From Cyanidioschyzon merolae (Eukaryota), in the NCBI GenBank assembly GCA_000091205.1, contig AP006486.2: a DNA stretch of 64,000 nt; one strand, written 5' to 3'. The notes beneath the pieces were generated by a model. It was not told where the DNA came from, ran no database searches, and was given only the letters and a program-made list of their open reading frames with translations. This document shows, one piece after another, positions 3,001-59,613 of this stretch (position 1 is the stretch's first letter; the number at the start of each line of letters is the position of its first letter). Position numbers and translations under genes: made by a program.

Positions 3001-3379
3001 GCGTCGTCGCAGCAAAACTCACTAGTCGCTACCTGTGCACCGGGTTTCCGGGGCAACGACAGCAAATATTTCCAAATCAACGACCTCGCCGTAAAAGCGA
3101 TATTCATAGGCACGCTCGTGCTCATAGGAAATCATTCCTTTACGTTCCGAGAGAGATTCCCAGTACAGTCGTTCCATGTGTATCGCCTCTGAATCACGCC
3201 CCCTCGGCAGGATTTCAGAGCGCTCTCCGCGCACCACTGTATCCGCATTCATTCATTCGTTCTTTCGTTCATTCATCCGTATTCACCGATCTTGTGTACA
3301 TGTCTGCAACATTGTCATTACAGAGGATCAGCATAGACATGATATAGACCTTAAACGACGTAATCGTCAACGCGCATAC

Positions 3380-10515: not shown

Positions 10516-12189
10516 AGGAAGAGGACGCTGGCGGTGGTGACGATGTCCAGCTGCGAAGCAACCGTCACGAGCGGTACCCAGTGCGAACGGTGCTCTGCGT
10601 ACAGCAGGTGAGCGAACTACTCTTTAGCCCTGGTACAGCGGATCAGAGACAAACATGCCTTGTACTTTCTTGGGTTAGGTCGTCTCCGTGCGAAAGCTGC
10701 CGATCACGTCATGGGCTAGAATCGATCGCGTAAGTGTGCGTATCCAGTCAAAAACCTGTTTTGCGTAGCTGCACGAGTGATCTTCCGTCGAGTGGTGCAG
10801 ATGCCAACCTCAATCTCCGTAGACTGTCTAACTTGGAGCACAACCCGCACAAGCGCTCAACGTCAATCTCAGAAACTAGGTTAAACTCGCAGTTTTCCGA
10901 GCAACAATCTCGTCAGTACTAGTCGCAATGCGTTCCGCAACGTTGAGTTCAAAGATCACAATGATCGTTGAGGAACGTCGCTGCAGCTCACCGATGAATA
11001 ACGTAGCGGAGGTACAAGAGACTAACATCCGGTGGTAGTTTTTTTGGAAGCGCCTGCACGTCAGTTGGACACGTTACGTCTAGGGCGGGTCACTCGCCAC
11101 TACTGTACACGGCCGACGACGATGTTTTTCTTTTCAAGGGCATGTGTAGTTGGTTGTGTCGCTTCCGGGCTCGCTGTACTGGTTAGGCTCTTGAATCTAA
11201 TCTTATAGAGTAGATCAGAATACAGTATGTGCTTTTGTCGGATGCCTCGATCGTTCAAGGCGAGATGCAATGCTCAAACGTCGTGGCAGATATAGATGCA
11301 ATATGTTAGCTACGCCTCTGCCAAGATCACCGGATCAATTGACGTAGCGGGGACCATAAGTTAGACAACGAAGCAGCATGGCAATGACCTGAGCTCTCAT
11401 CAGTACCAGCCCCTGACGCAGGAAAGAAGCACAATTCAGGCCAGTTCTTTATTCCGGTGTCCGTGCAGGATGCATAGCAAGCCTAGGGAATAAACTTATA
11501 TCCGTGTTCGAGAACACTACCGTACCTATTACGGTTACGACCAATACAACTGAAGAAACTCTTATTGAGTAGAGTGTTGCATATCTTATCCACACAAGTG
11601 CAAGCCGCAGAGGAAGATACGCGTGTGATAGAAGCATCGCGGGGTATCGTTCCAGGCCCCTGCATCCCCTTGTCTGGCAGGGCAGTGCTGCGATGGGCAG
11701 CAGCGTCGGCACCAGCGACATAACCTATAGCAAGAGTGCATTCTACGGGAGTTTCCAGTCTACGATACCTTATGTTTTGCGGCAGTGCGATGCGAACACG
11801 CATGTGCCAAGGCGGGGTGTCGGACACGTGTCCTTCATCGATCGGAGTAGCGTTTCGCGCAGTGCACGCATCGCGCTCGGTGAGTGCACCTCGGGGATCA
11901 GACAGACATGAGACACGACGCGCGTGCCGCTGTTCAAGGGAAACGTGATCTCGATCAGAAGCGTGTTGTTCAGCTGTAAAAAGTTGGATTTCCGTTGAGG
12001 ACATAGCAAAGTAGAGTTTTCCTTTCGTTTTTGTTCCGAAATTAAACCAGACTAGTCAAGTGTTTTTTCGCTGTATATAACAGAAGCGTTCAAAGAGCGT
12101 TCTTTTCAAAAAAAGGAAAGCTATCACAGAGCAAGTCCACGATCCTGGAGGCCCAGGTTCGCAGGCTGCCAGAAAAAGAACATAAAACG

Positions 12190-14330
12190 GTGTCGAGTCC
12201 CGAAGAAAAGGAAGAGAAGAAGGACCGAAAGCAGGAGGCCCTACGTCGAAGGCGGCAAGAAAGACGACTGTACGACGAGAATATGGTGAAAACTTTCTTT
12301 CTTGGACATATCAAGGATCCCTGTAGGGAAAAGTTGCGAGACGCCATTGAAAAACGTGTTGACTCGTACTCGAAGAGTATTGTAAAGACGTTTTCAGGAC
12401 TAATGCATTTGGCGAGGGAGATGTATCGCGACGTAACGCAAATGGAAACAGTCGATGTTCCTGACGCGTTCTTCGATAGGACATGTATTCGATACCTGAT
12501 GCTTGGCACAGCGGAAGCGCGGAGGGAAACTCAGCTAGTGTATGCCCTCCACGAAAAGTTCGCGGAATTCCGCTCCGAGGCTACCCGACACAGGGGTGAA
12601 TGTTGTATTTACGAATACATGGCAATGGGGTGCCTCACGAATGTGAGGAGCCTTAAGATCTTAAACGTCGTTTCGTTCATGATACGCGTTCTCTTTGCGC
12701 TCTACCCGTGCCTTTTTCGGGAAGGGATTCGAGGAACCATCGATGGTATCAAGAACGATTCCCAGCATGAACGGGATATGAACTTTGTTGAGAAGAGGAC
12801 ATCACGGTGGAGAAAGAACGAGGCTTCTGTTCTCCGCTCTACCATTTAAAGGCATCGTTCGGTCTTGGAGCTTGGCACCCCAAGAGAAACACTTTCAGAT
12901 ATGAGAAAAGAAGAGAGATGTTCCCCCCCTCATCCTGCCTCACTTCATGTTATTTGACCGAGAACTCCGACGGAAGGCCCAAATAGAGCTAAGTATGGAA
13001 AAAATGACGGGTGGGAGAAACGGCATTGAAGTGGTTTTCCAGAAGCGCTTCAATTTCGTTTTTTATGCGAGTTCAAGTCGCATTTTGTGATTATCGACTG
13101 TAGAGGCCTTTTACGACTTCATGAAGGAGATCTATTTAGAGCTCGATGTAATAAACCGAGAGGTCATCGGCGAAAACAGGGACACCGACTAGAAGATTAT
13201 TTTCGATATCACGTGTCTCGAACCGGCCAAAAAAGGTATTCCAGCGGACAATCGATTTCGATATTGTGTACATAAGTGTACATCAAATGCTGTTGCAGGC
13301 ACTTCATCCTATCCCGTCTTCGTTATCGCCCTTGCCGAAGCACGAAAACAAGAAGACGGGCCGCGAAACGCATAGTCCCCATGAAAACGGCTTTGTCGTC
13401 GGCCCTAGCCCCTGAAACACGAGTATCATGACCTTTGCTGTACCCAAGCGTGAGTGCGATGGCACTGACCGAAACTCACGTCAGAAAGACAGCAGGATTT
13501 TGGGGATCTCACGAGAGAAATACTACCAAGAAGCGGGAATCATGAATGCAAGCAAGAAAATTGAGACATGAAATGCAGGAATGAAGGATCTCCTGGAATC
13601 TTTGAGCGAGGTGACGAGCCGAGAAGCGGATTTTGAAGCTTCTCGGAAATTCATAGAAGGTTCGCGTTGCTCATTAGGAGGTACTGTGGAAAGAATATAC
13701 AATGCCCCGGTGGGCTCGAATGCGAATGAATCTGGACTGTGGTAAGCAGCGGGCATTTGCGAATTGTTTCAGCCAGTTGTGCCCTGGAGGAGGATCAGAG
13801 TCAGATGCTCATTGTAGCGTATGGGGCAGGGCGCTGGAAGACCCAAAAAAGGTTTACGCCAGCTCCATCGACAAGAACATATAAGGAGTGCGCAAGGCGA
13901 TTCGTTACGATATAAGTAGATGAGCTTCGAATGACCTATACACACCATAAAGTGGGGTGCACACTTCAGAGAGTGGAGATGGAAAAGTGCCAGCGGAGCC
14001 CTGGGGAAACAGCAAAGTACGGACAGCTGACGAAAGAGCAAATGGAAAGAAGAGCCAAGTTCGTGGACTAGTTGCATTAGTGAGTACAACCCGCAACGGC
14101 ACGAAACAGATAGAGTTTGGGGATCGAGACTTTAACGCCGCCATCAATGGAAGGAAATGCGCGGTGCTGGAGAAAAGACCTCCAAAGTGGACACGAGGGA
14201 TCTTTATTGGACAACCTCTCAGAGTCGAACTATATGAGAAAAAAATTGGAAGCAGTCGTGGGTGGCCGGTCGAGAAAGACTGAGATGCGTTTGCACGTCA
14301 GCTGGAGACTTCTTGTCTAGGGCGCCGGTC
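12190..14330 (+). mobile_element. Degraded TnpB/Fanzor-like (IS200/IS605 OrfB family) element relic. A KR-rich N-terminal ORF (12190..12849) is followed by broken frames and a C-terminal RuvC-III-like motif at 14119..14182.
   Basis: ORF 13957..14283 encodes ...KQIEFGDRDFNAAINGRKCAVLEKRP, matching the TnpB/Fanzor RuvC-III signature (D.NAA.NI..RG). A second paralogous relic lies at 49959..50960 with nucleotide identity 24/25 over cgagacNttaacgccgccatcaat. The region is an AT-richer island and the usual CxxC...CxxC zinc finger is absent, suggesting decay. Confidence 0.4.
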
Positions 14331-14439
14331 ACCACTACTGTACACCGCTGGCGGCTACAACGTTATTCTTTTCAAAGACGTTTGTTTCCAGGGATGAATA
14401 CTGAGCGTCCACAGCAGCACACCTCTCCTTCGAACGCGT

Positions 14440-26148: not shown

Positions 26149-29100
26149 GTTAGAGGCCCAAGCTACGCACAAGTCTCAGGCGCAGCGCAAAACTGTTCAG
26201 TCAAGGCCATGCGCTCCAAGCGCGCTCCATCGTGCCGCAAGGGCGTGCGGCTCGTGCGCCTGCGAGATAGGGAGGTGCTCTACGCGCTGGCGCTCCGCAG
26301 CGCGTCGAAGCATCGAACGTAGGAGAAGCGGCATGCGCTAAAGTTCACCGCTTGTAGTCGTTGATCATGCGGGGACGGGGTGCGAGTTCGCTGGTATTTG
26401 CTGAAGCTTGCCAATGAAACCTGAACAGTGATGGCTGCTCGTTGCTGCACGGGAACCTGCGGGGTAATTTCTGGGCCTAGTCATGAAGGATCAGGATATG
26501 GGTGTGAAAAATTGATCTTGATGGGAGCTCTTCAACCGGGCACTCCAACGACACGAACGTACTATCAGATGCATCCATACTCTGGAATCGGCAGGGTGAC
26601 GCCTCTGTGAGCGACATTTGCGGTCGCGGCGACTGCGAGTGCGTGTGCCATGCACTTGTCGGCAATGCCTGGACTGGACGCACGCTCGCGTATGTAGACC
26701 TGCACGCCTGCTCCGTGAACGAGCAGCGATGCATGGAACCTCATAGCGCTGCATGCGGGGACGATGCCAGTTTCCAGAGCTGGGTCCTCATGATCGACGC
26801 TGCAGGTGCTGTTCTTTTCATCGATCTGCAACACGCATGTGCGACGGAGTGAGGATGCATGTATACGTCTGTACAGACGTATACATGCTCGTACAATCAT
26901 AGCATAGTTTATCCACGCCTACGTGCACACACCTATGGACGCGCACGAAAACAACATGAGTAGATGCTCGAGCCCGTCGTGCTGCAGACGCTGCGCATCG
27001 AATGAAGCATTTTGAGCAAGTTATGGCAACTCCTGGACAGGTGCGTGTTACTGTGCAGCGCGAGAGAACACATGCCATGGATGCTTCGAGAACAATATAC
27101 GCACGGGGTAAACTGTGGATCGTGGTATGCGCTCGCCCAGGCGTTCTTTGCTGGGAGCGCGCGTCAGTCGAGTGCGGGTGCCGTATGCCAGGGTAGATCG
27201 CGCGAGCTCTCCTAGCTCGCACTGAAGCTAGTGGCGTCAAGCATTCTCGCTTCATCAGCGTATACCAATAAACGTCCGGCATCTGTCGTTTCTAAAGTGC
27301 CCGCGACGTGCACACTGTCACCATTTAAGAGGCAAGATGCGCCGCCGCAGGCGCCGCTGAGCATGGCAACCGACCACAAGCGTTGCGCTCGCTGCAGCCA
27401 GCCTTGCGAGCGGGTTTGCGGGTGTCGCAACGCAGGAGCCAGTTGCACACGAGTCCCGTGAGTCGAATGCACTGTCCTGGTTTCATGGAGACTGGCATGA
27501 GCCCCGCATCCACAGCCGTACATAAGCGATCCACGCGGACATATTTTACGACGGAAATATGTTATTTTTGAAACGTTCGATGACAGAACATCATTCTGGT
27601 TCAAGAATAAGCTAGGGGAATCGTTCGCAATGTGTACATACCGCGCTCCAGGCTTGCTGTATTCCTGAACCGCACCATACCAGTGCTCGCGCTCTTGGCA
27701 TGTGATTTTTTCATCCCAAGTCTGTAGCATTCCAGCATCATGTCAACACTTAGGTCTTAACGAGTTCCTCAAACGGTCGCTGGACACGAATCCATTGGAC
27801 GCTCTGGAAGCTCAAGATATTTGCAAATGCTGATTGCGAATTCCTATGTTCGGTGGACATAGCGCTTCCGCAAACGATTGCTTGGTTTGGACGCACCGTG
27901 GCAAACCGCTTACCAGCGCCTGCCTGGTTATCTGATGTAAAGTCCGCTTCCCGTACACAATCGAGTGCCTCTATCTCGGTTTCATTCTCTTCTTCACAAC
28001 CTGTTTTGCGGCACATTCGTGCTTCGCTTCGTTACTTGTCGTTCTGAGTTCATCCATGGAAATCGTACAGAATCGATTCCCGCACTCGCCGTTCGCTCTC
28101 GACAAAGAAGCAGGAGTCAAGCTGGTGCGTGCCAAGGTATGTCCAGTGCCATAGATGACCACTGAACGACGCGACTTTTCGGTCATTTCGATTGTAGCCT
28201 ATGAGAACGTTGGTGAACGCACGTTCTCCTGCCTTCGCAAAACCGAAAAGGTTGGCGTCCTCGGGCGTGATGAAAAAGAACTCCTCCGGAAATCATTGCG
28301 ATGGTTCATATGGATTGTAACATACTCCCTGGAACGCAATATCCCCTTTCATTCGTCCTCATTTTCACGCGCGGGAGAGTTGAAACTACTACACACTCAT
28401 CGTACGCGTCTTGAAGCACTCGACATTGATCAGAACACAGTTTTTGTTTGTGAGATCGGCTTGAGGCCTTTCGGCACCTGCGCTGCCCATGTGCCGGTCA
28501 ACAACGTATTACCATACTCTTGGAGGCGTATGTGCAAGTCGCTGATCCTACGATCAGGCCGTGTTTTATCTTCTGTGCGGGAGATTTTTCTGCGTTGCCT
28601 CACGAAGGATCGATCAAAAACTCGCAAAGGTCACTGAAGCGTTGACCGGGTGGTTTTCGCGGCTCCTACGAGCAGTTGCTTGACGAGGCGCGTCATGACA
28701 AGGGAAACTAGCCGAGCTTTCCGCGTGTGAGAAGCTACGCACTGCGGAACGAAGCCACAGATCTTACTGTGTCGAACATTCTCCCGGTTCGTACGTTGAA
28801 ATCAGAAGGCCTTTGAAACTGTGCTTGACAATGGTTTTTTCATCGGACCTCCTCGACCTGGTTCCGAAAAGTTCGTTCCCTTGTTTCTCCTGTGGTTTCC
28901 TTGCCTTCTAGTTCACCAAGCGCGGTGGTATACATGTGGTTGCAATGTTCCGTAACCGTTCGTACTTTTTACAGGGAACAAGTACTGGGTTCGTGGTAGC
29001 ACTGAAGCTTGCCTATTCTGCCCACGTATATATGTTGTGTCCCTCGAGGATCTTTTCGTCAGCTTCGGCACGATTGCCGCTCCCAATCGCGGAGGAGCAC

Positions 29101-30056
29101 AAGTGCAATACCGCAGTTCCGGGCTGGCAGACGTAAACTACGACATGTCGAAGAACGGCGTCTAGGATACGAACGAACCTTCCATAGGTCCATGACCGTA
29201 GAGTTGGCGTTCGGCATCAGAGAAGACGCCATCGACTGGATTCAACGAGGAGATATGTGCCGGCACCAAGAGCAGTGCAACGCGAAGCGCAGCAGTGTGC
29301 TCCACGACTTCTGTTGCATGATGATAAGCGACGTTGTCATCGACCAGAACAGAGGAATGTGAGATGGAGAATCTCCAACGTGCTTCACTAAAAATATGCG
29401 ATATTGGATGACCCTGTACGAATGGACATTTCGAGGCGACCACAGCACTGCATCGTCGCAGAGTCTGACGTTCACTTCAGGCTCACCTGTCCCCTATTTG
29501 CGAACAGCGGTTTGCCGCTCTTCGGGTACCCATATATTACAGATGTGCCAATTGCTCCTGAATGAAGTCTCACTGGGTGATAGGACCACCCGTCTTTTCT
29601 ACGATAAGCGTTCGCGTTTTGGTTCGAACTTCATTGTGTATTGCCCAATGCAAGACGATCTCCGACACCTGCGCACTTTTTGCGTAGTCCAGTGATGTCT
29701 CTTCATCACTGTTCGTATTAACAGCATGGAAGCATCGCGTCTGGACATTCCTTTGATATTTTTCAATGACCATTCCGACTGAAGTGGATTGACGGGGTCA
29801 TCGCGCAGATAGACGATGATAAGCGCTGTTCTGGGTACACGACGAGCGCCACTTGGACTAGGTGAAGCGTGGTTCACCCACCTGCTGACCACAGAATAAC
29901 TGAGTTGTTGTGAGATGCAGATCCTGCATCGCAACCCAGCACAAGGTGCCGATGTCTTACCGCGGGCATTCACCAACCCACAGGATACATGCCTTTTATT
30001 GAATACCTGAGAAAAATCAACCGAAACGAAAAGCGCGTGCTGGTACAGATGGCCCA

Positions 30057-30226
30057 GAATTCACTGCTCTTCATATTACACGGTCACTAGAATGCGACCA
30101 GGTTGCACGTACCACAGAAAATGCAGCAACGTACGCTGCCAGAATTCACTGCTCTTCATATTACACGGTCACTAGAATGCGACCAGGTTGCACGTACCAC
30201 AGAAAATGCAGCAACGTATGCTGCCT
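30057..30226. repeat. Two tandem copies of an 85-bp unit (98% identical) just 3' of the WD40 gene
   Basis: gaattcactgctcttcatattacacggtcactagaatgcgaccaggttgcacgtaccacagaaaatgcagcaacgta(c/t)gctgcc occurs at 30057-30141 and 30142-30226. Confidence 0.85.
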
Positions 30227-40658: not shown

Positions 40659-41006
40659 GTGGCTATCGACGAAGCTGCATTCCACAGTAGCATGATCCAT
40701 CGCCCGCAATATGCTACCAGGGGTTCCCGTCTCTTCTGCTCCGAAAGAAAACGGTCTTGGTTTTGGACTTTAGTCACCGCAGCGATCGCTTCTAGTCGAG
40801 CACTGGCTATCGTTGTGCGCGAAGGCAGCGTGGACGGATCACGATTCCTGGCCATGATCTCCAGCCTGGATATTCCTTCTGGTACGTGTTTCATCATGAA
40901 CAACATCGCGTTCCATGAACCCGCTGTCGGATGGATCAGCATAAGCTTTCACGCGCTGCAGACAGCGTTCTTGACGAGCGGATCGCACAGAATAAAAAGT
41001 CCATGA
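40659..41006 (+). repeat. Copy 1 of a dispersed ~0.3-kb element family with conserved coding potential (boxes AIDEAAFHSSM ... ISSL..SGTCFIMNN)
   Basis: Homologous over ~100 aa (same frame) and ~70-80% nt identity with 51524..51958(-). Box 1 is also present at 59385..59465(-) and 63772..63852(-). Confidence 0.45.
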
Positions 41007-44400: not shown

Positions 44401-47400
44401 TCACGCCCGCGATGGTGGACCCCGTCGCGCCGCTCGCTTCTGGGTACGGTATCGCTCCACGATGGTCGACAAGTGCGGTGTGGGTAGCGCGGCATTTCTT
44501 GTTCGCTCTCGCTCCCTCAAGACTCGTTGAAACGCTTGCCAGAACGCCACTATCTCATCGAAAGTGGGTCGTTGCTGTCGTCGCTGACGGAAACAGCCAT
44601 CTAGAAGCGATTTCAGGCCTTCGTCGGTGTCCGGTGGCGCTCTGAGACGTTCACCGCGCTGCGCTACTCGATAAATGACCTGAATGGGGTGTTCATCGGA
44701 CCAGGGCTTGTCACTGGTGATCAGCTCCCACACAATAACGCCGTAGGACCAGACGTCGCTCTTCTCATCGACGGTTTCTTGACGCATGACCTCGGGCGCC
44801 ATCCACTCGGGCGTACCCGCAGCACCCGTTGCCAACATGGTGTGCACACGAGAGCGGCTCAGACCAAAGTCGGTGACAATGGGCGTGCCTGTTTCGGCGT
44901 CGATGAGCACATTCGGGGACTTGAGGTCCCGATGGATCACCGGTGGCTGCTGCGCATGCAAGTACTGAACGCCTTGGGCGATCCCGAGAGCCAGTTGGGC
45001 AATTTCGGCGAGGCTGAAGGCAGGGCCGTCCGCAGCGGCCTTGCGCGCATGAATGAGACGATAGAGTGAGCCGCCGCTCACAAAACCCAGCACAATGCAG
45101 AGATGCGGTGACTTGGTTACCGCACCGATAAAAGGCACGATGTTCGGATGTTTCAATCGGCTGAGGAGAACCATCTCTTTCTGGAAATCCTCCACGGTTT
45201 CCAGACTGTAACCGTCGTCGTCGCGGGTCAGTTGTTTGACGGCGACGATGACACCGCGCCATTCGGCCATGAACACTTCACCAAAGGCACCGGCTCCGAG
45301 TTTGCTTCCAAAGCGAAGCTCTTCGTACGGAATATCCCATTTTTCACGCCATTCTCGGTCAAAAAGCAGTGGGGCATTCCCGTAATATTCCATCTCCGAG
45401 GCAGTAGATCCGTCGATGGGCCCGTCTTCCGCCTGTTGCTGCTGTTGTTGTTGTTGCTGCTGAGACGCTTCGCCAGCGGCGTTCAAGTCGCGCGTTCGAG
45501 CCGCCTGTAATGCTCGCTGTGCCTCTGTGTGCAGGTCGCGATCCGGCCTGGTCGATTTGTCTGCGAGCCATCCAGAAGACAGCGCGGATGCGGCATCAGC
45601 AGGGCCCTGCATGGTGCGTCGCTCCTCGAGGGCGCGTCCTCGAGCATCCGATGCCAACGCTGACTGCTGCTGCTGCCACATCTGCTGAGCGAGCGCACTC
45701 CTGCTCTGCTGCTGACGCAGGTGATCCACGCGTTCAAGACGACGATGAATTTGGGCGAGTTCTCCGATCGAACGCGTCAGCGCCTCGTGGTTGCTCTCGC
45801 GGCAGTCCAGAATGCTGCTTTTCGGGATGCAGTGAACGAGGGCCGGCAGGTCTGTACTCCGCCAGTAGATCATAAAGACGGTTTCAGGTCCACGCTCTAG
45901 CGCTCGGCACAGGGCCAAGGAGAACAGCGTCGCACATTGAGGTGAACGAAAGAAACCGTCGGAAACCAGAGCGACAAACCTCTTCGAATGCAGCATCGAA
46001 CTGTACCATTCATCCATAAAGAAAGCGGAGCGAATATCGGCCTCTTGGTCGGGAGAAACCGGCCCGTCAGCTCGACCTTGCTCCGATTGTTGCGCGTAAT
46101 GCGAATGTTCTGCTGCTCCGAGCGCAACCGTTGTGCCTTCCACGAATCCAATTCGCTCAGCGCTAGCGACGGGTTCGCTTCTGTCGCTGGACGACCTGTG
46201 CTGACCCTGGCCAGGATTTGATGCTGTCCAGTGTGTCGTGGGTGCAGCTCCACGATGATCATTCCGTGCCGCCGCCGCCGCCGCCAAAGACGCACCAGTC
46301 AGATCCGCAGTGGCGGGCGCTTGTTCCGCACCATCCATCGCTGGCGTTTCAGCGCTGACGCCAGGTTCGTCGTCGGCGACACTATGTTCAGGCCCGCTTT
46401 CCAAGGGCTCAGTGACCGCGTCGGCTGCATGACGCTGGAGCGCACGCTCCCTGAGGCTCCCTCTTGTGACGCCCTGTGCGTCTCCTTTGGACGTCAATGT
46501 CGTCGTATCGACGGTCTGTGGCTCAGCAGTTGCAGGCGTCGCAGATGCACCCGAAAGATTCGGGAAACCCCAGTGCGCAGTGCGCAATCCCCCGTCGTTC
46601 GACGGGGCCGCAATGTCCCACTCTTGGCGTTCGACCAGTTCTGTCGCAGCAACGTCCAGTGCACGACTGTGCACATCAAACACCTTAAAGCCAAAACGCA
46701 CGCGCAGTACGTGAATAATTTCCCATGCAACTTTGGTATCGTCCCGGTGGTACAATACGAAAAAATCCCGTTCTAGGCGACGCTTCGACGATGCCATCGC
46801 TTGCGAGGTAGCAATGGTGTCCGCGACCGGAGATACCAACTCGGGTGCGAGTTCGCTGCGCGTCTCGCCAGGAGCGCCCGAAAGCGGAGGTGCATCTCCG
46901 ACGCCATCTCCGGTCTGCACCGAAGCGACATGCTCGGACTTGGAACGCTTCGGGTCATAGCGCCCCTCTTCATCCATGCACTCACGGAACGACGAGAGCA
47001 GCCGCTGAACGCTCGGCGTGCAGAAGCCTCGCGGCACCAAGATGCGAATGAGGGGCAAGCTCAACCCGGCGCTACACCATCGCAGGGCCGCATCCAGCAG
47101 GTATGTCAAGACGTCGACTGCATCGGCCGCATACTCGAGACACAGCGGAAACATGACACTGCGGATACCCGTTCTGCCAGAGCAGAGCAGTGTTAAAAAT
47201 CCAAAAGCATGTTGGATGACTCGCTTGTACGATTGGGCCCGGTCGCCGTCGATCACCAGAATTCGGCGGAATTCGATGCCTCGCGGACGCGGGCGATGCA
47301 AAACGTTCGTCAACCAGGCAGCGTAGTGTCGTCGATAGGCGCGCTGCGGTTTTGCCTCGGCAGCTAGATCTGAGAGTTCGAGGCCGACTGAGCGCAGCTC

Positions 47401-48741
47401 GTCGAGCACGCTAGGGAGCTCGCACGGTCTTTCGGACGCGAAGTTGCCGGCGTCGGGGTTTCGTGCGCTTTCTAGACGCTCCGCTGTCTGGGCGGAGCGG
47501 GCGCCCTCGGATGCCGCCTCAAGCAATGTTGAGTTCTGGGACGCATCCGCGTGATTCCCGTTTCGCTCATCACTCAACGCGTCGTTGGTGCTCGAAAGCA
47601 CCCCGTGTCGGGCGTAAATCGAAGACGGGCGCGCAGCGGCTCTGGCTTCTGCGGGCGCCTGTGTCCTGGATTTCGCACAGATGGCGAGCAGGTCGACGGC
47701 GTCACCAGGTTGCATGGACACCGGCGATCCCTCGCTTATTTCTACAATGGATCGGCCAGAACCTCGAAGGATCGTGAAATATTGAACGCAGTTGAACGAC
47801 TGCCGAGGCAGCGGCACGGGCGGCAACGATACCTGCGCACGCGCCTCCTCCTGGAGAGTCTGGGGGCGCGCCCCATCGCTATCGCCGGTGTTGTCCGCGG
47901 GAACGCTGTCGCCATTGCTATCAGCGGCAGCATCGGGGTAGGGCGTTGCCACTCGTGCGTTGGTATCCACAGCACTACCGTGGTCCCCTGAGGACACGGA
48001 TAGAGAGCCCTGTTCTTGCACCTGGTCATGTGCTGACCACTGAGTGTCGTCAGTCGCAACGTTATCCTCGCTTGTCGACCGTACAACATCGGCAACACCA
48101 CGCTGAGTTGACGACTCTGGAGCCGTCTCTGCCCCATTCTGGATTTGCATAGTAGATGCAGTTGCGCCTGTGGGTGCTGCATCAGGAGCCTCAGGCTGCG
48201 CGCTGACCCCTGAACCTGTCGATCGGTCGGATCCGCTCGCAGTGGGCAACCGACTCGATACATTCCTGGATTCCGCCAAGATCGGGCTTTCTGCCAACGA
48301 CCCGCAAGTTCCATCCGTAGATTGGAACTCCTTCGCGCGCACCTGCTGAGCAGCACTCGCCGAGTTTTGCGCACGAATCGAGCCTGATGTCGAAGGTGCC
48401 CCTTTGCGATGCCGTGGTCGTGCAGCTTTACCAGTTTTTGATGCACTTGCACTCTGGGGCCGGTCACGCGCTGCGATGCTCGTAGCGGATGCCGAAGTTT
48501 TGATGCGCTCGGGCGTCGTACTTCCCTGGGCCCAGAGAGCCGTACTGGCGCCGAGCTCTGACGGCCCCAGTGTCGCGCCCATATTTCCCAGACCACTCAG
48601 ATAGGATTTTGCGAGCCACGTCAATATTCGGATGGGGAATGGACGCTTATCTGTTGGATTTGGCGTACGAAGCAGGCGCTTTCGTTGTTGGACGCCTCTG
48701 TCGTCGAGAGGCGTCGTAGTATGTCCCGAAGAGGGCGCCAT
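44401..48741 (-). CDS. Large TIR-like domain + TKL-group Ser/Thr protein kinase fusion: low-complexity N-terminal region, unknown middle domain, TIR-like domain (nt about 45880-46780, split by a ~190-aa low-complexity insertion), poly-Gln, C-terminal kinase
   Basis: Kinase: GSKLGAGAFGEVFMAEWRGVIVAVKQL...VIHRDLKSPNVLID...VTDFGLSRS...GTPEWMAPEV...DVWSYGVIVWEL (Raf/IRAK-like TKL features). TIR-like: DFFVLYHRDDTKVAWEIIHVLRVRFGFKVFDVHSRALD vs plant TIR [34 protein letters not shown], and SKRFVALVSDGFFRSPQCATLFSLAL vs [22 protein letters not shown]. ATG verified at 48741. Confidence 0.75.
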   Translation of the reverse strand: MAPSSGHTTTPLDDRGVQQRKRLLRTPNPTDKRPFPIRILTWLAKSYLSGLGNMGATLGPSELGASTALWAQGSTTPERIKTSASATSIAARDRPQSASASKTGKAARPRHRKGAPSTSGSIRAQNSASAAQQVRAKEFQSTDGTCGSLAESPILAESRNVSSRLPTASGSDRSTGSGVSAQPEAPDAAPTGATASTMQIQNGAETAPESSTQRGVADVVRSTSEDNVATDDTQWSAHDQVQEQGSLSVSSGDHGSAVDTNARVATPYPDAAADSNGDSVPADNTGDSDGARPQTLQEEARAQVSLPPVPLPRQSFNCVQYFTILRGSGRSIVEISEGSPVSMQPGDAVDLLAICAKSRTQAPAEARAAARPSSIYARHGVLSSTNDALSDERNGNHADASQNSTLLEAASEGARSAQTAERLESARNPDAGNFASERPCELPSVLDELRSVGLELSDLAAEAKPQRAYRRHYAAWLTNVLHRPRPRGIEFRRILVIDGDRAQSYKRVIQHAFGFLTLLCSGRTGIRSVMFPLCLEYAADAVDVLTYLLDAALRWCSAGLSLPLIRILVPRGFCTPSVQRLLSSFRECMDEEGRYDPKRSKSEHVASVQTGDGVGDAPPLSGAPGETRSELAPELVSPVADTIATSQAMASSKRRLERDFFVLYHRDDTKVAWEIIHVLRVRFGFKVFDVHSRALDVAATELVERQEWDIAAPSNDGGLRTAHWGFPNLSGASATPATAEPQTVDTTTLTSKGDAQGVTRGSLRERALQRHAADAVTEPLESGPEHSVADDEPGVSAETPAMDGAEQAPATADLTGASLAAAAAARNDHRGAAPTTHWTASNPGQGQHRSSSDRSEPVASAERIGFVEGTTVALGAAEHSHYAQQSEQGRADGPVSPDQEADIRSAFFMDEWYSSMLHSKRFVALVSDGFFRSPQCATLFSLALCRALERGPETVFMIYWRSTDLPALVHCIPKSSILDCRESNHEALTRSIGELAQIHRRLERVDHLRQQQSRSALAQQMWQQQQSALASDARGRALEERRTMQGPADAASALSSGWLADKSTRPDRDLHTEAQRALQAARTRDLNAAGEASQQQQQQQQQQAEDGPIDGSTASEMEYYGNAPLLFDREWREKWDIPYEELRFGSKLGAGAFGEVFMAEWRGVIVAVKQLTRDDDGYSLETVEDFQKEMVLLSRLKHPNIVPFIGAVTKSPHLCIVLGFVSGGSLYRLIHARKAAADGPAFSLAEIAQLALGIAQGVQYLHAQQPPVIHRDLKSPNVLIDAETGTPIVTDFGLSRSRVHTMLATGAAGTPEWMAPEVMRQETVDEKSDVWSYGVIVWELITSDKPWSDEHPIQVIYRVAQRGERLRAPPDTDEGLKSLLDGCFRQRRQQRPTFDEIVAFWQAFQRVLRERERTRNAALPTPHLSTIVERYRTQKRAARRGPPSRA

Positions 48742-49958
48742 TCCAGTTCTGGTTACTGTTGCGTCCCGAGCATACAGCTGCGGTAGGCCTTGGTCTTATC
48801 ACAGAATAATGGCAGCGGTTCGCTTGAGCAAGGCCCACCGTTTCCCGCTCCGTAAACAACGCGCCGGTAAACACTCAGGTATATAAACTGACGCAAGATG
48901 CGGCTTCCGCAACCCGAACTGGAAGCGCAGCACCTGCCCCAGCACTTTCTGCCCTTAAAAAGGTTTGCGTGGCCGTCTGGTGCGCTGCTGGGCAACCGCC
49001 AGTCCAAGGTAAGGGACAGTACAACAAAAACTCGCCCTTTGGACGACTCCACGAAGGTTCCCTGTACCTCCGTGTACTTGTGAATAACGTTCACTTCGAG
49101 CTGCAGCGCGAGCAACAGCTGCACCAGACCCCGCTATACCTTCAGCTGCCACTCTCAACAAAGAACACTCTCCCCAAAGCGTGTAGAAGCAAGCGAGCCT
49201 CAGCCTCTAACCCCAGAGAAGTAGTCAGCGCACTTGCAAACGTCGCCAGCACCACCACAGTAACTTTCAGAGCTTAACGACCAGCTTAGCGCGCGTACAA
49301 GTCTCTGTAGTCTCTGAAAGCACGGGCACCTGAAAGACCCTCGACAACCTCAAGGTATGCAGCTGGAATCGACGTGCTCCGGCCGCCGTTGCGACGCGCG
49401 CGCAGAACATGGACACGGATGCGCCATGTGCACGCATGTGCGCATTCCGGGACACGTCACCAGGCGCTCCGCTGCGTGCAGCACCTCAGCGGCATCGCTC
49501 AGGCGCACTGCATCGATGCGTGGATCCGAAGGCGCGTACACCGCGCACCGCCCGATGTTTTTTCCATTTGTGTATATATATTGACCGTCTCGAAAGCAGG
49601 GAGGACACATTCCACTTTTAGTCCCTCTACTCGTTTGTTTTCCACCTCAATCATGTGGTATCGAATGCTGTTTTGTAGTGTATAGAAGGCGATCGACAAC
49701 ACGATGCAATGTAGTGTATAGATCGAAGATGAATAACCTGTTGGATATGTATTCTTAACTGAAGAATGCAAGGAGCACTGCATTCCTCTTTTAGGTCAGT
49801 CATATCAAAGTACTCAGATGGTTGAGGTACACTGAGAGAAACAATCGTAGGCGCGACGCACCAGTAACCGATATTCTCGAAGACTGCTTGCGATGCATGG
49901 CAGAAAACGAACCGTGGATCACCTAGCGCAAAGCAAACGTTACGATAGTAGCAACTAG

Positions 49959-50960
49959 GTGTGTCTCTTTTTTCCAATAGCTAGTTCACTTGGTCCTGAG
50001 GACACTGGGATACAGTCGCAAAAAAATATTCTAGTTCACGCACAGCCATCTTCCACTGTAATCGAAATCCCCACAGCTTTCCGGGAACGTCGAGATCGAT
50101 ATGAAGCACAGGAGCGTCGACTTGTTTTCTATGCCGATGGGCCCTTTTTCCGGAAGAAACCGTCGGAGCGTATATGGGTATGCGCATAGAAGACGTCCGT
50201 GGTGTGTATGATCGAACTCAAAGAGAACGAGGATATCAACACCAGTTCTAGCTGCATTGGAGTCATTCTGCGGCCTCAGTTTCGCTCGCAGAGAAGGATC
50301 ATACGAAAGCAACCACTTTGCCGAATCATTGAAGACTTTTTTTCAAGACGTCTGGTGACTTTCTTCTTTTACGCAACGTGGTATTCCACCATTCTTCTCG
50401 CGTTCCTGCTTTTGAAGATTCTATCAGGATAGAGATGCTTTTCATTCCAGCGTTCTCTTCGTGGTCCAACATCATTGAAGGAGCATTTTCTATCCTGAGA
50501 AGTAATGATCGCTTCTCTAGGCGAGTCGCTGAATCTTTAAGCCCATTCGTATACCGGGACACGTTTGGTCTTTCTTGCGCAAGCACTTCTCCATCTGGGA
50601 AGCGCCTCACCTAAGGCCATAAAAAAGTGCGTTCATTTGCAGATATAAAAAATTTAAGCAATGAGCTGGGGTCTACACTTCAGAGCGTCAAGATGGAGAG
50701 AAGGCAGCGGATCATTGCGGCAACAGAAAAGCTCAGAGAGCTGACAGAGCCGGATTTGGCAATGAGGGCACGCATCCTAGCAGTCCCCACTATGCTGCGT
50801 TCAACCAGAGGCGATAAACGCATGAAATTCGTGAACCGAGACGTTAACGCCGCCATCAATTTCAGGAGATCTGCAGTGCTGAAGACGAGACCTGCGGAAA
50901 TTACGTGAATCAACTTTTTGGGACACCCTCTCAGATCCGAGGTGTGCAGGGAGAAACTGA
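49959..50960 (+). mobile_element. Second degraded TnpB/Fanzor-like relic: four consecutive plus-strand ORFs in shifting frames ending with the RuvC-III-like motif (50825..50890) and a conserved tail
   Basis: ORF 50627..50908 ends ...TMLRSTRGDKRMKFVNRDVNAAINFRRSAVLKTRPAEIT, paralogous to 13957..14283. Similarity continues past the stop into the next frame (INFLGHPLRSEV vs GIFIGQPLRVEL). The region is an AT-richer island. Confidence 0.45.
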
Positions 50961-51523
50961 AACCGATAGCAGGGGGCCTGTCGAAACAGACGGGGAGGCA
51001 TCTGTGATTGCATACTCATTTACCGTCCATAGATGTGAACCGTTGTTCGCTTCACTGGAACATAGTCCAGAACGCGGGCGAACACGTGAAAGTGCGCTGC
51101 CTCATCTAGTTGTCATGAACATGAGCGTCTGTGAGATTTCTCTGGACTGCTTCCTTCCCAGCTGGGTCATTTCCGGGACTGGATACGCTGGTGCTTCGTG
51201 TCCCGCCAGCTACGATGTCAGCGCTAGCGTGACGATTACGCAGTTCCCCGCAATTGCAGACGCATTTCGTTACCAGGCAGAGGTTGTGATCTATGCTTCG
51301 CTTCTCACTTTCGTCTACTTTGTAAAAAGCCTCAATGCGCCTTTCGCAACGATGCCACCTGACTCAGGTCGATTGTTCCCAAACGTTCACGCCAACTCCA
51401 CTGCCAGGCGGTGCACTGTGGCGAGTGACGGCTTGCTTCAGGACCCAGAACATCTCAGAGGCGGATACAAAAGGCTTCTCTCGATAGTCTCCCCGGCTCC
51501 GGGTCCAATGCCTTACTCCATGA

Positions 51524-51958
51524 TCACGGACGTGTTCTGTGTGATACCCTCGGCGAGTATTCTTCCCGTTGCATACGCATATACACGCTCTTTCTTTCAA
51601 TAGAGGCGTTTCGGAACTCGGTATTATTCATGATAATACAAGTACCGGAAAGAGAATACAGGCTCGAGATCTTGTCCAAAAGATGCGCTCCATCTACGCG
51701 CACTCGGTGCAAAACGCTGCCACATGCTGCAATGGGAGTGGTCAATGCGATGACTGGAGTCCGAATCGGAGAACCTTTCCCATGCAAGCAGCAGAGACGG
51801 ATGCTTCTGACAGCATATCCGGCGAATGGTCTCATGCTGCTAGTGAATCCCGTATCATCGATAGACAAAAGAGAAGAGAATTCGTTTTTCGACCGGAATC
51901 GAGTAGTAGTCGTGGACGTGAAAAGTTCAGTGAACCTACCGCATGAGCTTGTGAGCAA
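51524..51958 (-). repeat. Copy 2 of the dispersed ~0.3-kb element family (SIDDTGFTSSMRP ... ISSLYSLSGTCIIMNN), convergent with and ~600 bp from the second TnpB/Fanzor-like relic
   Basis: Protein-level and nucleotide-level homology to 40659..41006 and to the box-1 segment inside the LepA-flanking repeats. Confidence 0.45.
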
Positions 51959-52626
51959 GTCGACTAGGGACCATGTCGAGTTTTTTCACCTCATGAATGC
52001 AGCGGCGCGTGATGCTGTCCCCGCGACTTGCATTGTAACAAAAAGACGAGATACTTGAAACATGCGTGATGGATACATTCTATACATCAGGATCGAAGAA
52101 GTCTGGCGTCCTCTGCGCATGCTCTGGGCGATGATACAGGTTTTACCACAGAGTTCAGTTCGACGGTGTCGCAAATTATCTCGATTCCGGTGACGGAACA
52201 AATTCGAGCGGCAACGCGTCGGAGTTGCTTCTCCGAAACGACACCCTAGATTCCCGAACCTATATATGCGTCCGTGAACCCTTATTGATGCAATTGGAAT
52301 GTCAAAGCTTTAAATCTAAAACGAGAGTTTGCAAAAAATCGAAACGCAGGAACAGACTGAGCATCTCCGTATCTGCTTTTCCTCTGACACGGGTTTAGAT
52401 CGCCGCTGCGTACATCGTTTCCCAGAAGAAATTTCGCATGATATAGTTCCTGCCCTAGACGCTGAAGACGCTTGCCGACTCTGTGATACCTGATCGCGTC
52501 TTCAACCCTAAGCCAAAGAAAAACCGTGTCCTGACCTCGTGAGCGACACGTCCACAGACAGGTTTCCTGCGGCTTGTAGTCGCTAGCGCGCGTGCTTACC
52601 GGAGGTCAAACGCATAGGTGCCAGTT

Positions 52627-58588: not shown

Positions 58589-59613
58589 GTCAACGTGAAA
58601 AAGTATGGATCCACTTTGCTGACTCTTGCGTACGCTGTAATATCTGGGTATCTTGTCGTTGTTGTTACACCAACACCACTCATTTCACGATACGCCCCCT
58701 GGCTGCTCTTTTTTGCAGTCTTGGACAATCCGCTTCACATACGGGCGTATCTAGTGTCCATCCGGCGCCGTCGCAAGCAGTCGCAGAATGCTCCGATACA
58801 AACAAACGTCCCGATATGGGTGCTTCCTGCGTTAGCCAGCGCACCGGGTACGGACTGGCAGGAGTCGCAGTCTACGCTTCGCTTGCCGTGCTCATTCTCG
58901 TTGTATACAATATCAATGCGCTCGTCGCAGCGCAGACTGCGTGGGCTCTATCAGGTGTTTCTGTTTGCGTACTAGCGCGCTCCCTGAGACGATTGCCCTC
59001 TCGCGCTGCACAGCTTGCGTTATCGCTCGGTAGACGCACTGTGGGCAGGTACAGGAGACTCTTGGGGATACCGTTGACCGTCTCCTCGCCCGGGTACTCT
59101 GGCCTAGGGTCACGAGCGTCCGCTGTGCCATTCACTAGGCGAGGGCGTTGTACGCTGTCCGGTGCATGCGCAAGTGCACACTGTTGCATTCGAGAGTGGA
59201 TTTGCATCACGTGATGTTCCCCATGAGCACGAGACAAGTGCCGCAGGGACTAGTCAGTGTCGTGAACAATTCGAGAGGTGTCGATCCGTCGACGCTCGCT
59301 CTGTGCACCGCACGATCACACGCTCAGCTGGAAGTGATCGCTGCGATGCCTGCATTCCTGGTCCCTGGATCGTTCACGATACTTGAAGCAAAGACGGCAG
59401 ACGCGGGGCACGTATCGCACCCGAGGACGCATGCTGGTATGGAATGCCGTCTCGTCGATGGCCGCAGCCAAAGGCAGCATCGTGTCTCGAACGGCACTGA
59501 ATGCCTGGCGAAGCAAGATCAGCGAATGTGTCGCATGACCATGAGTGCACAAGTCGCCAACGGAAGACGTCGAGTACGGTTCGTGGTCCATCCAGAGACG
59601 CGATTTACCGCAC
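58589..59613. repeat. Direct repeat R, copy A (at least 1025 bp), 3' of LepA; it contains a box-1 copy of the dispersed element family
   Basis: Colinear with 62976..64000 at a constant offset of 4387 bp with only scattered substitutions (about 97% identity) and no indels noticed. It may extend beyond 59613, but copy B is cut by the window end. Confidence 0.9.

What the first reader, a model, noticed from the sequence alone, without database searches (positions are those of the whole stretch)
49959..50960. Second TnpB/Fanzor-like relic, paralogous to the first
Four successive plus-strand ORFs in rotating frames (49959-50908) end in ...KFVNRDVNAAINFRRSAVLKTRP. The core cgagacNttaacgccgccatcaat is 24/25 identical to copy 1, with about 75% identity over ~110 nt around it. 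Two decayed paralogs 36 kb apart imply a once-active element family in this genome.
Basis: partly seen in the sequence, partly recalled or inferred. Interest (0 to 1): 0.7.

Follow-up and report, generated by a model that had tools for sequence, protein, structure and literature searches.

The report
Decayed mariner-type transposon with Fanzor tail

Summary
The window is Cyanidioschyzon merolae 10D nuclear DNA. In detail: the four ORFs exist, the 24-nt core occurs exactly twice (0 expected), and the flanks are about 74% identical to copy 1.

Only 50660-51004 is Fanzor-derived. It matches residues 611-726 of the published CMe-1 Fanzor1 consensus (Bao & Jurka 2013; about 150 copies in this genome) at 50% identity, E 4e-26, with one in-frame stop. 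It keeps RuvC-III (NRDVNAAINF) but lacks the RuvC-I Asp and the catalytic Glu.

The three upstream ORFs are not TnpB. Corrected for frameshifts, they form a Tc1/mariner/IS630-type DDE_3 transposase pseudogene (Pfam E 2.7e-10, above the curated cut-off).

The two parts belong to one roughly 1.49-kb element, about 49611-51097. At least 10 paralogous loci in C. merolae-like metagenome contigs share the same junction, where the Fanzor 5'UTR is fused to codon ~611. Intact relatives elsewhere have TIRs, TA flanks, a 300-aa transposase and a 650-700-aa Fanzor1.

A structure model of an intact family member matches only Fanzor1 structures in the PDB (E 9e-12).

Verdict: an inert relic of a known kind. 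The DDE_3 link to the CMe-1 lineage is a small addition. Interest is low.

The parts
49611..51097 (+). The whole relic element, about 1.49 kb: a 'type A' member of a repeated DDE_3-transposase + Fanzor-tail family. The ends are approximate.
   Evidence: Window 49586-51057 aligns at 79.9% to a consensus built from 10 paralogous copies. At least 10 paralogous loci align to 49656/49700-50972/51006 at 68-71%, with unrelated flanks. The termini are inferred from where the paralog alignments stop: 5' ..CACTTTT at 49613-49619 and 3' GAAAGTGCG at 51089-51097. This placement is tentative.
49703..50614 (+). DDE_3 (Tc1/mariner/IS630-type) transposase pseudogene. It is frameshifted and carries stops. The second catalytic Asp is lost (LLLRNVVFHH against family LLLDNVAFHH).
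   Evidence: The frameshift-corrected translation hits Pfam PF13358 DDE_3 at E 2.7e-10 and 40.7 bits, above the 28.6-bit cut-off. ORF 3 alone gives E 1.1e-4. tblastn with the intact 301-aa transposase of L016 gives 47% over 49 aa. The family consensus encodes MYRIDRRRIA...FSVDETCF...LLLDNVAFHH...PWFNRIEGVFS.
50624..50652 (+). Remnant of the Fanzor 5'UTR, just upstream of the lost start codon. It is directly followed by the deletion junction at about 50653-50660.
   Evidence: Matches CMe-1A consensus 868-897 at 83%. The family consensus matches 869-897 at 93%, E 2e-6. The junction is shared by window, L017, L032, L041 and L058.
50660..51004 (+). Fanzor1 C-terminal remnant, residues 611-726 of the 734-aa CMe-1 protein. 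It includes RuvC-III NRDVNAAINF (50834-50863, Asp codon 50840-50842) and an in-frame stop at 50906-50908. RuvC-I Asp431 and the catalytic Glu603 are absent.
   Evidence: tblastn with the CMe-1 protein: 50% identity over 116 aa, E 4e-26. blastn with the CMe-1A consensus 2737-3083: 70.6%, E 3e-42. Motif positions read.
51005..51097 (+). 3' subterminal and terminal region of the element. It corresponds in position to the 3' non-coding end where Fanzor guide RNAs map in active elements.
   Evidence: Similarity among paralogs continues to about 51057. A GAAAG(G)CG-like terminal motif recurs in window, copy 1, the CMe-1A consensus, L007, L032 and L037, after which the flanks diverge. The RNA fold of 50830-51095 is no better than shuffles, z +0.29.
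11872..14380 (+). 'Copy 1': a near-full-length CMe-1A element (consensus 648-3169) with a frameshifted Fanzor1 pseudogene. This is the paralog the finding refers to.
   Evidence: blastn: 77.2% over 2533 nt. tblastn pieces cover aa 4-734. RuvC-I is decayed (VVGPSP* against VVGADPGN), while VDELRM and DRDFNAAING are retained.
27884..29907 (-). Third, more diverged composite relic: a DDE_3 transposase pseudogene followed on the same strand by Fanzor1 fragments.
   Evidence: tblastn with the L016 transposase: aa 29-298 at 29907-29114, E 7e-22. With the L016 Fanzor1: aa 91-164 at 28738-28514 and aa 552-650 at 28174-27884, E 4e-11. Pfam DDE_3 at E 1e-6.

Best explanation
The locus is an inert, roughly 1.49-kb relic of a Tc1/mariner-superfamily (DDE_3, IS630-like) cut-and-paste transposon. 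In its complete form the element carried two genes on one strand between terminal inverted repeats: a ~300-aa DDE transposase, then a ~650-750-aa Fanzor1 RNA-guided nuclease of the CMe-1 lineage.

Before this subfamily amplified in the Cyanidioschyzon genome, an internal deletion removed Fanzor codons 1 to about 610. It fused the Fanzor 5'UTR directly to codon ~611. The surviving copies consist of the transposase gene, the last ~120 Fanzor codons and the 3' end.

The window copy has since drifted to about 80% identity with the family consensus. Its transposase is frameshifted and has lost a catalytic Asp. Its Fanzor remnant has only RuvC-III plus a premature stop. It can therefore neither transpose nor cut DNA.

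What is shown and what is inferred:
- Shown: the anatomy, the family membership, the shared junction, the existence of intact composites elsewhere, and the Fanzor1-like fold of an intact family protein.
- Inferred from established knowledge of Tc1/mariner elements and of Fanzor/TnpB: the ancestor moved by DDE-catalysed excision and insertion at TA. Its Fanzor, guided by an RNA from the element's 3' end, cut DNA to favour retention or spread of the element.
For: **Organism.** Two window ORFs are identical to C. merolae 10D proteins BAM79110.1 and BAM79102.1.

**Published family.** CMe-1A has a 3169-bp consensus, about 150 copies roughly 80% identical to it, and a 734-aa Fanzor1.

**The Fanzor tail.**
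- Consensus 2737-3083 matches window 50661-51004 at 70.6%, E 3e-42.
- The protein matches over aa 611-726 at 50%, E 4e-26.

**The upstream part.** It scores as DDE_3 at E 2.7e-10, above Pfam's cut-off.

**One unit, not two neighbours.**
- In a metagenome scan seeded only with the DDE part, 45 of 80 loci carried a Fanzor match. In nearly all of them it follows the DDE match on the same strand within ~150-400 bp.
- At least 10 distinct paralogous loci align contiguously with window ~49660-51004.
- The junction of 5'UTR to codon ~611 is shared by 5 loci. A second subtype (codon ~45 joined to ~633-643) is shared by at least 5 others and by L003.
- The family consensus maps to CMe-1A 869-897 and then 2737-3083.

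**Intact composites elsewhere.**
- L016: TIRs of 28 nt, a 301-aa transposase and a 702-aa Fanzor1.
- L028: TIRs of 30 nt, a 300-aa transposase and a 646-aa Fanzor1.
- L019: a 302-aa transposase and a 699-aa Fanzor1.
- TA flanks are present.

**Fanzor membership of the family.**
- Foldseek of an AF2 model of P0155 returns Fanzor1 structures as its top 7 PDB hits (SpuFz, GtFz, PpFz; E 9e-12 to 1.5e-7). The next hit has E 0.6.
- DPG...EFR[TS][TS]...RD.N.A.NI is invariant across the clade.
- A clade member hits Pfam PF07282 above the cut-off.

**Decay of this copy.**
- In-frame stop, with the RuvC-I Asp and the catalytic Glu missing.
- The 3' RNA fold is no better than shuffles, z +0.29. The CMe-1A consensus 3' end gives z -2.9 and L016 gives z -2.3.
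Against: - The element's exact termini, TIRs and target-site duplication could not be established in the window copy. Only a 6-nt CACTTT/AAAGTG inverted match and a recurring GAAAGGCG-like 3' motif were seen, without statistical support.
- No full-length DDE_3 + CMe-1-type Fanzor copy was recovered from C. merolae-like contigs. The full-length ancestor in this lineage is inferred from two different deletion derivatives, a more diverged composite relic (window 29907-27884) and intact relatives in unidentified organisms.
- The AF2 model has low overall confidence (pLDDT 59.9, pTM 0.43).
- Sequence-only searches against PDB chains and Pfam find no Fanzor/TnpB hit for the CMe-1 proteins themselves.
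- The paralogs come from metagenome contigs that are 99% identical to the window at the orthologous locus, not from the 10D assembly itself.
- No expression or activity data exist for any part.
Confidence: 0.86

Rival explanations
1. A plain 5'-truncated fragment of the published CMe-1A element that happens by chance to lie next to an unrelated DDE transposase relic. On this reading there are two independent pieces of junk.
For: The region 48.9-52.5 kb is a graveyard of several repeat families. The tail aligns directly to the CMe-1A consensus. Solo CMe-1A fragments exist elsewhere in the window, e.g. 11046-11141.
Against: The same DDE-to-tail arrangement, with the same junction sequence, recurs at at least 5 other genomic loci whose flanks are unrelated. 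A second junction type recurs at at least 5 more. The piece just before the junction matches the Fanzor 5'UTR. Intact elements with the same gene order and TIRs exist.
Confidence: 0.04
2. One reading: the four rotating-frame ORFs 49959-50908 are one frameshifted full-length TnpB/Fanzor pseudogene.
For: The ORFs are collinear on one strand, and the last one carries the RuvC-III motif.
Against: The CMe-1 protein has no tblastn match in 49959-50626 even at E 10. The same stretch scores as DDE_3 above Pfam's cut-off and aligns to intact DDE transposases. The span of about 950 nt is far too short for a 734-aa protein.
Confidence: 0.02
3. The relic still has a function. It might supply a guide (omega/fRNA-like) RNA from the retained Fanzor tail for Fanzor1 proteins made by other CMe-1A copies. 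Alternatively, the ORFs at 50627-50908 or 50905-51603 might be exapted.
For: All deletion derivatives keep exactly the 3' portion where Fanzor guide RNAs are encoded in active systems (PMC10530073). The consensus CMe-1A 3' end folds better than shuffles, z -2.9. Bao & Jurka report that some CMe-1A copies still encode intact Fanzor1.
Against: The tail is no better conserved among paralogs than the dead transposase part: per-column agreement is 0.75-0.84 against 0.70-0.86. The window copy's 3' RNA folds no better than shuffles. There is no Rfam hit. The tail must in any case be kept for the 3' transposon end, which explains its retention without invoking RNA function. The ORFs have no family hits.
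Confidence: 0.05

Closest known systems
CMe-1A, the Fanzor1 repeat family of Cyanidioschyzon merolae (Bao & Jurka 2013, Mob DNA 4:12, PMC3627910)
   Same: Same genome and same Fanzor1 lineage. The tail matches consensus 2737-3083 (70.6% nt, 50% aa), and the family consensus tail is 77.8% identical to it. The age is similar, at about 80% identity to consensus. A similar GAAAGGCG-like 3' terminal motif is present.
   Different: CMe-1A has no transposase. Its 5' 635 bp is the TE-N2_CMe repeat, and it was described as lacking TIRs and unclassified. The element here has a DDE_3 transposase gene in place of that 5' part and lacks Fanzor codons 1-610. It is therefore a sister family, not a CMe-1A copy.
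Mariner/Tc1 elements carrying Fanzor1 (PUl-1, PUl-2, PGv-1 of Bao & Jurka 2013; Mariner/Tc1-Fanzor1c associations of Jiang et al. 2023, PMC10530073)
   Same: The gene order is transposase then Fanzor1 on one strand. Intact relatives have TIRs and TA flanks and are about 3.3-3.6 kb long.
   Different: The window copy is an internal-deletion derivative with both genes dead. Its own TIR and TSD are not demonstrable.
Fanzor1 nucleases with solved structures (SpuFz 8GKH/9CEZ, GtFz 9CER, PpFz 9CF1)
   Same: The model of an intact family member aligns over its full length with these structures only (E 9e-12 to 1.5e-7, TM 0.31-0.50). RuvC-I Asp, an alternative Glu in DEFR[TS][TS] and RuvC-III RDxNAAxNI are conserved.
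   Different: Sequence identity is 12-15%. The CxxC...CxxC zinc ribbon is degenerate in the CMe-1 clade (HHELGC...VRGLLALVSTT). No RNA partner or activity is known. The window copy retains only about 16% of the protein.
Bacterial TnpB of IS200/IS605 and IS607
   Same: Distant homology of the RuvC nuclease. A clade member hits Pfam PF07282 Cas12f1-like_TNB. The guide RNA is expected from the element's 3' end.
   Different: The host is eukaryotic. The partner is a DDE transposase, not a TnpA HUH or serine recombinase. The N-terminal region is much larger, and the catalytic Glu is rearranged, as in Fanzors (PMC10530073).

Membership tests
CMe-1 Fanzor1 lineage of C. merolae (Bao & Jurka 2013) | Significant nucleotide and protein similarity to the published CMe-1A consensus / CMe-1 protein | tested here: met
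   blastn 70.6% over 347 nt, E 3e-42. tblastn 50% over 116 aa, E 4e-26.
CMe-1A element proper | Element structure: a TE-N2_CMe-like 5' 635 bp, then a full Fanzor1 ORF, with no transposase | tested here: not met
   Upstream of the tail lies a DDE_3 pseudogene, not consensus 1-867. Consensus ~898-2736 is absent.
Fanzor1 / TnpB-like RuvC nucleases | RuvC-I catalytic Asp (DPG motif) | tested here: not met
   Absent from the window copy because it lies in the deleted region. It is present and invariant in intact family members (D431 of CMe-1).
Fanzor1 / TnpB-like RuvC nucleases | Catalytic Glu. In Fanzors the canonical RuvC-II Glu is replaced by Gly/Pro and an alternative Glu lies downstream (PMC10530073). 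| tested here: not met
   Absent from the window copy. In the family, the canonical position reads VVAYGAG and E603 in VDEFRTS is invariant.
Fanzor1 / TnpB-like RuvC nucleases | RuvC-III motif RDxNAAxNI | tested here: met
   NRDVNAAINF at 50834-50863. The column is invariant in the family.
Fanzor1 / TnpB-like RuvC nucleases | C4 zinc ribbon (OrfB_Zn_ribbon / TNB) between the Glu and RuvC-III | tested here: not met
   The cysteines are missing in the CMe-1 consensus and in the window copy (ELGSTLQ...ILAVPTMLRST). Pfam PF07282 scores only E 0.51 on the consensus. A more distant clade member scores 30.3 bits, above the 26.3-bit cut-off.
Fanzor1 / TnpB-like RuvC nucleases | Overall fold like solved Fanzor1 | tested here: met
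   Tested on the intact relative P0155, not the relic. The top 7 Foldseek PDB hits are all Fanzor1, E 9e-12 to 1.5e-7. Model pLDDT is only 59.9.
Fanzor1 / TnpB-like RuvC nucleases | Associated structured guide RNA (omega/fRNA) from the 3' end; RNA-guided DNA cleavage | not testable with these tools
   Only fold-energy hints are available: consensus 3' end z -2.9, L016 z -2.3, window copy z +0.29. There is no Rfam hit. Small-RNA data and biochemistry are needed.
Tc1/mariner/IS630 superfamily (DDE_3 transposase) | DDE_3 transposase domain | tested here: met
   PF13358 at E 2.7e-10 and 40.7 bits, above the 28.6-bit cut-off, on the frameshift-corrected translation.
Tc1/mariner/IS630 superfamily (DDE_3 transposase) | Intact D-D-E/D catalytic triad and open reading frame | tested here: not met
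   The reading frame is broken across three frames with stops. The second Asp is replaced by Arg (LLLRNVVFHH). The family consensus and P0151 keep DET...LDN...IEG.
Tc1/mariner/IS630 superfamily (DDE_3 transposase) | Terminal inverted repeats flanked by a TA target-site duplication | tested here: inconclusive
   Clear in the intact relatives L016 (28 nt, 79%) and L028 (30 nt, 77%), with TA flanks. In the window copy there are only a 6-nt CACTTT/AAAGTG pair and no TA flanks.

The most novel reading that the evidence does not exclude
The DDE_3 + Fanzor-tail family may reveal the missing vehicle of the CMe-1 Fanzor1 lineage. Bao & Jurka left the abundant CMe-1A repeat unclassified, with no TIRs and no transposase. 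On this reading CMe-1A would be a chimeric derivative of a Tc1/mariner-type element that kept its 3' end (shared GAAAGGCG-like terminus) but swapped its transposase half for TE-N2_CMe. The repeated survival of just the Fanzor 3' tail in two independent deletion subfamilies might then reflect retention of the guide-RNA/3'-end module. Such a module would be usable in trans by Fanzor1 and by the transposase from other copies.
Probability: 0.3. Interest if true: 0.35.

Novelty: new member of a known kind. Interest (0 to 1): 0.2.

Why it matters
The main value is as a correction. The Fanzor signal is real, but it was published in 2013 and is dead at this locus. Most of the flagged span belongs to a different gene, a DDE transposase.

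The modest new point is that the C. merolae Fanzor1 lineage was physically linked to a Tc1/mariner-type transposase, and that two deletion subfamilies amplified afterwards. This gives a plausible classification for a repeat family previously left unclassified.

The work also points to intact transposase+Fanzor1 composites in other, unidentified organisms (loci L016, L019, L028). Those would be better material for anyone studying how Fanzor nucleases serve cut-and-paste transposons.

Tried and rejected
- **Single-sequence and profile HMMER searches of PDB chains.** Queries were the copy-1 reconstruction, the CMe-1 consensus and a 7-sequence profile. No Fanzor/TnpB hit was found, only noise.
- **Pfam on the individual ORFs, the CMe-1 consensus and six metagenome homologs.** No TnpB-type domain passed threshold: PF07282 scored E 0.51 on the consensus, and PF26935/DUF8286 appeared only in precomputed annotations.
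- **Rfam over the whole window.** No hit. tRNA scan: none.
- **Inverted-repeat search across 49540-51140.** No convincing TIR pair at the element ends. The proposed termini rest only on where the paralog alignments stop.
- **Direct repeat of the CMe-1A 3' end just upstream of the element (about 49536-49575).** I considered this possibility, but sensitive blastn did not support it.
- **The first homolog search with the two decayed DDE relics.** It found only 2 proteins. The metagenome DNA scan was what recovered the family.
- **Exact look-up of the neighbouring kinase gene to obtain the NCBI gene calls around the locus.** Not on record, so I could not confirm from the annotation that the region is intergenic.
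- **Covariation analysis of a putative guide RNA.** Not attempted, because only about 3 intact 3' ends were available.

Full report
**Source of the window**

Two long ORFs of the window are residue-for-residue identical to Cyanidioschyzon merolae 10D proteins. These are BAM79110.1 (Raf-related MAPKKK, 44401-48741 minus) and BAM79102.1 (Trithorax-like, 14440-20172 minus), on a 513,455-bp chromosome. The flagged region lies downstream of the kinase gene's 5' end. It sits in a stretch with no long ORF of recognisable function.

**Checking the observation**

- The four plus-strand ORFs exist as described.
- The 24-nt core occurs exactly twice in 64 kb, at 14125 and 50837. No match appeared in 100 shuffles.
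- DNA identity between the two copies is 74% over two blocks, 50667-50745 and 50837-50935.
- At protein level the two copies align at 37% over 78 aa, E 4e-12.

**What the Fanzor-like part is**

A frameshift-corrected translation of copy 1 retrieved more than 150 metagenome proteins at 65-73% identity. They carry intact VVGADPGNTN, VDEFRTSYTHH and VNRDFNAAINIR motifs.

The literature search then showed that the family is already published. Bao & Jurka 2013 (PMC3627910) describe the Fanzor1 family CMe-1A in C. merolae:
- a 3169-bp consensus;
- about 150 copies, roughly 80% identical to the consensus;
- a 734-aa Fanzor1 protein;
- no TIRs;
- unknown class;
- a 5' 635 bp shared with the repeat TE-N2_CMe.

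I took the consensus from their Additional file 2 and aligned it to the window.
- Copy 1 is a near-full-length element: 11872-14380 matches consensus 648-3169 at 77%.
- The finding's copy matches only consensus 2737-3083: 50661-51004, 70.6%, E 3e-42.
- At protein level this is residues 611-726 in a single frame, 50% identical, E 4e-26, with one in-frame stop at 50906-50908.
- It retains RuvC-III (NRDVNAAINF). The RuvC-I Asp (D431) and the conserved Glu (E603 in VDEFRTS) lie in the missing part.

**What the three upstream ORFs are**

The CMe-1 protein has no match in 49959-50626, even at E 10. Instead:
- ORF 3 hits Pfam DDE_3.
- After frameshift correction the region scores E 2.7e-10 and 40.7 bits, above the 28.6-bit curated cut-off.
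- Against an intact 301-aa transposase found later (L016), it aligns at 47% over the LLLDNVAFHH...PWFNPIEGVFS core.
- The family consensus shows that the pseudogene starts near 49703 (MYRIDRRRIA...).
- In the window copy the second catalytic Asp is Arg (LLLRNVVFHH).

**One element, not two neighbours**

Several results show that the DDE part and the Fanzor tail form a single unit.
- The 29 nt before the Fanzor tail (50624-50652) match the CMe-1A 5'UTR just upstream of the Fanzor ATG, consensus 868-897.
- The paralog L003 has a DDE_3 ORF, then the Fanzor 5'UTR and the first ~38 codons, then a jump to codon ~643.
- A metagenome scan seeded only with DDE sequences returned 80 loci. In 45 of them a Fanzor match is also present, and in nearly all of those it follows the DDE match on the same strand within ~150-400 bp.
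- Loci L038-L043 are 99% identical to the window over 3.8 kb. The metagenomes therefore contain a C. merolae-like strain, and the other loci are effectively paralogs from the same kind of genome.
- At least 10 distinct loci with unrelated flanks align to window ~49660-51004 at 68-71%.
- A consensus of 10 copies is 79.9% identical to window 49586-51057. It maps to CMe-1A 869-897 and then directly to 2737-3083, at 93% and 77.8%.

The junction alignment separates two subtypes.
- Type A (window, L017, L032, L041, L058) joins the 5'UTR to codon ~611.
- Type B (L003, L007, L011, L022, L050, L044) keeps codons 1 to ~45 and resumes at ~633-643.

Each junction is shared by several loci, so both deletions predate amplification. 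Two different deletions imply a full-length DDE_3 + Fanzor1 parent.

**Intact relatives**

Loci from other metagenomes carry complete composites. The organisms are unknown; some contig names suggest brine samples.

| Locus | Span | TIRs | Transposase | Fanzor1 |
|---|---|---|---|---|
| L016 | 62-3515 | 28 nt | 301 aa | 702 aa, 43% identical to CMe-1 |
| L028 | 537-3828 | 30 nt | 300 aa | 646 aa |
| L019 | not determined | not determined | 302 aa | 699 aa |

The TIRs begin YACTCT and are flanked by TA. This is the architecture Bao & Jurka described for Mariner-type Fanzor1 elements such as PUl-1. Jiang et al. 2023 report the same Mariner/Tc1 association for Fanzor1c.

**Is the family really Fanzor1?**

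Sequence-only searches against PDB and Pfam were negative for the CMe-1 proteins. Four other lines of evidence support membership.
- An AlphaFold2 model of the intact 752-aa relative P0155 has only moderate confidence (pLDDT 59.9, pTM 0.43). Its top seven Foldseek hits in the PDB are nonetheless all Fanzor1 structures: SpuFz, GtFz and PpFz, with E from 9e-12 to 1.5e-7. The eighth hit has E 0.6.
- Across five lineages 30-57% identical to one another, DPG, EFR and RD.N.A.NI are invariant.
- The canonical RuvC-II position reads VVAYGAG, with a conserved Glu about 33 residues downstream. This is the 'rearranged' catalytic site reported for Fanzors.
- A profile of the clade finds 3,710 cluster representatives at E<=1e-3. 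One of them reaches Pfam's cut-off for Cas12f1-like_TNB.

The C4 zinc ribbon of the classical motif is degenerate in the CMe-1 clade.

**Mechanism**

These steps are shown:
- the anatomy and decay of this copy;
- its membership of a repeated family;
- the shared deletion junctions;
- the existence of intact composites.

These steps are inferred from established knowledge of Tc1/mariner elements and of TnpB/Fanzor (PMC10530073):
- The parent element moved by DDE-catalysed cut-and-paste into TA.
- Its Fanzor1, with a guide RNA from the element's 3' end, cleaved DNA in a way that favours retention of the element.
- Internal-deletion derivatives kept both ends and therefore could still be mobilised.

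The 3' ends of the CMe-1A consensus and of L016 fold better than shuffles (z -2.9 and -2.3). The window copy does not (z +0.29). This is weak evidence. It is consistent with a structured RNA in active elements that has decayed here.

Among paralogs the tail is no better conserved than the dead transposase, so I see no sign of selection on it.

**Limits**

- The exact ends of the window element are tentative.
- No full-length CMe-1-type composite was recovered from C. merolae-like DNA.
- Repbase and Dfam could not be consulted, so the DDE-linked family may already be catalogued. The papers I could search mention no mariner-type family in C. merolae.

**Verdict**

The Fanzor relic is real, but it belongs to a lineage published in 2013 and is non-functional. 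The locus is a decayed, internally deleted mariner-type transposon with a Fanzor tail. That makes it a new member of a known kind, of low general interest.

Noticed in passing
window 27884-29907 (minus strand): A third, more diverged composite relic. A DDE_3 transposase pseudogene (aa 29-298 of the L016-type transposase) is followed on the same strand by Fanzor1 fragments (aa 91-164 and 552-650). It is closer to the L016-type Fanzor (39%) than to CMe-1 (34%), which suggests a second, older transposase+Fanzor lineage in this genome.
   Followed up: partly
window 40450-40995 (+), 51613-52082 (-), 35138-35352: Another repeat family, 66-69% identical between copies. The copy at 40659-40919 translates to a DDE_3-like transposase fragment (VAIDEAAF...MNNIAFHE; tblastn E 2e-7 to the L016 transposase). 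One copy lies tail-to-tail just downstream of the finding. Pieces of it recur next to several paralogous loci.
   Followed up: partly
window 24701-24956 (-), 38991-39444 (+), 11046-11141 (+): Fragments of the CMe-1A 5' part (the TE-N2_CMe repeat, consensus 12-534). There is also a solo CMe-1A 3' end (consensus 3073-3168, 80%) lying about 730 bp upstream of copy 1.
   Followed up: no
window 58589-59613 and 62976-64000: A 1,025-bp direct duplication at 98% identity, reaching the end of the window. It is much younger than any of the transposon relics.
   Followed up: no
window 30054-30225 and 33454-33638: Two short tandem or near-tandem duplications: 87 nt x2 at 98.9%, and 83 nt x2 at 81%. The second lies inside or near a long ORF on the minus strand.
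   Followed up: no
L016 62-3515, L019 484-3738, L028 537-3828 (metagenome contigs): Apparently intact Tc1/mariner-type elements carrying both an uninterrupted ~300-aa DDE_3 transposase and a 646-702-aa Fanzor1 with a complete D/E/D. L016 and L028 also have 28-30-nt TIRs and TA flanks. The hosts are unidentified. In L016 a second transposase copy starts about 190 bp after the first element.
   Followed up: partly
CMe-1 clade proteins: The C4 zinc ribbon that defines the classical TnpB/Fanzor motif is lost in the C. merolae CMe-1 proteins (no cysteines between DEFRTS and RDFNAA). It is only vestigial (WCDST) in their closest relatives, yet these ORFs remain intact in many copies.
   Followed up: no
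window 50905-51603 (+): A 232-aa ORF starts at the stop codon of the Fanzor remnant and runs out of the element into flanking DNA. I did not search it against any family, and it is probably fortuitous.
   Followed up: no
L032/L036 7966-10282: In one paralogous locus, a type A DDE+tail element with a CMe-1A-type 3' terminus is followed about 1 kb downstream by a nearly full-length CMe-1A Fanzor (aa 12-733, up to 79% identity). This may be a nested or adjacent insertion, or a hint of recombination between the two families.
   Followed up: no
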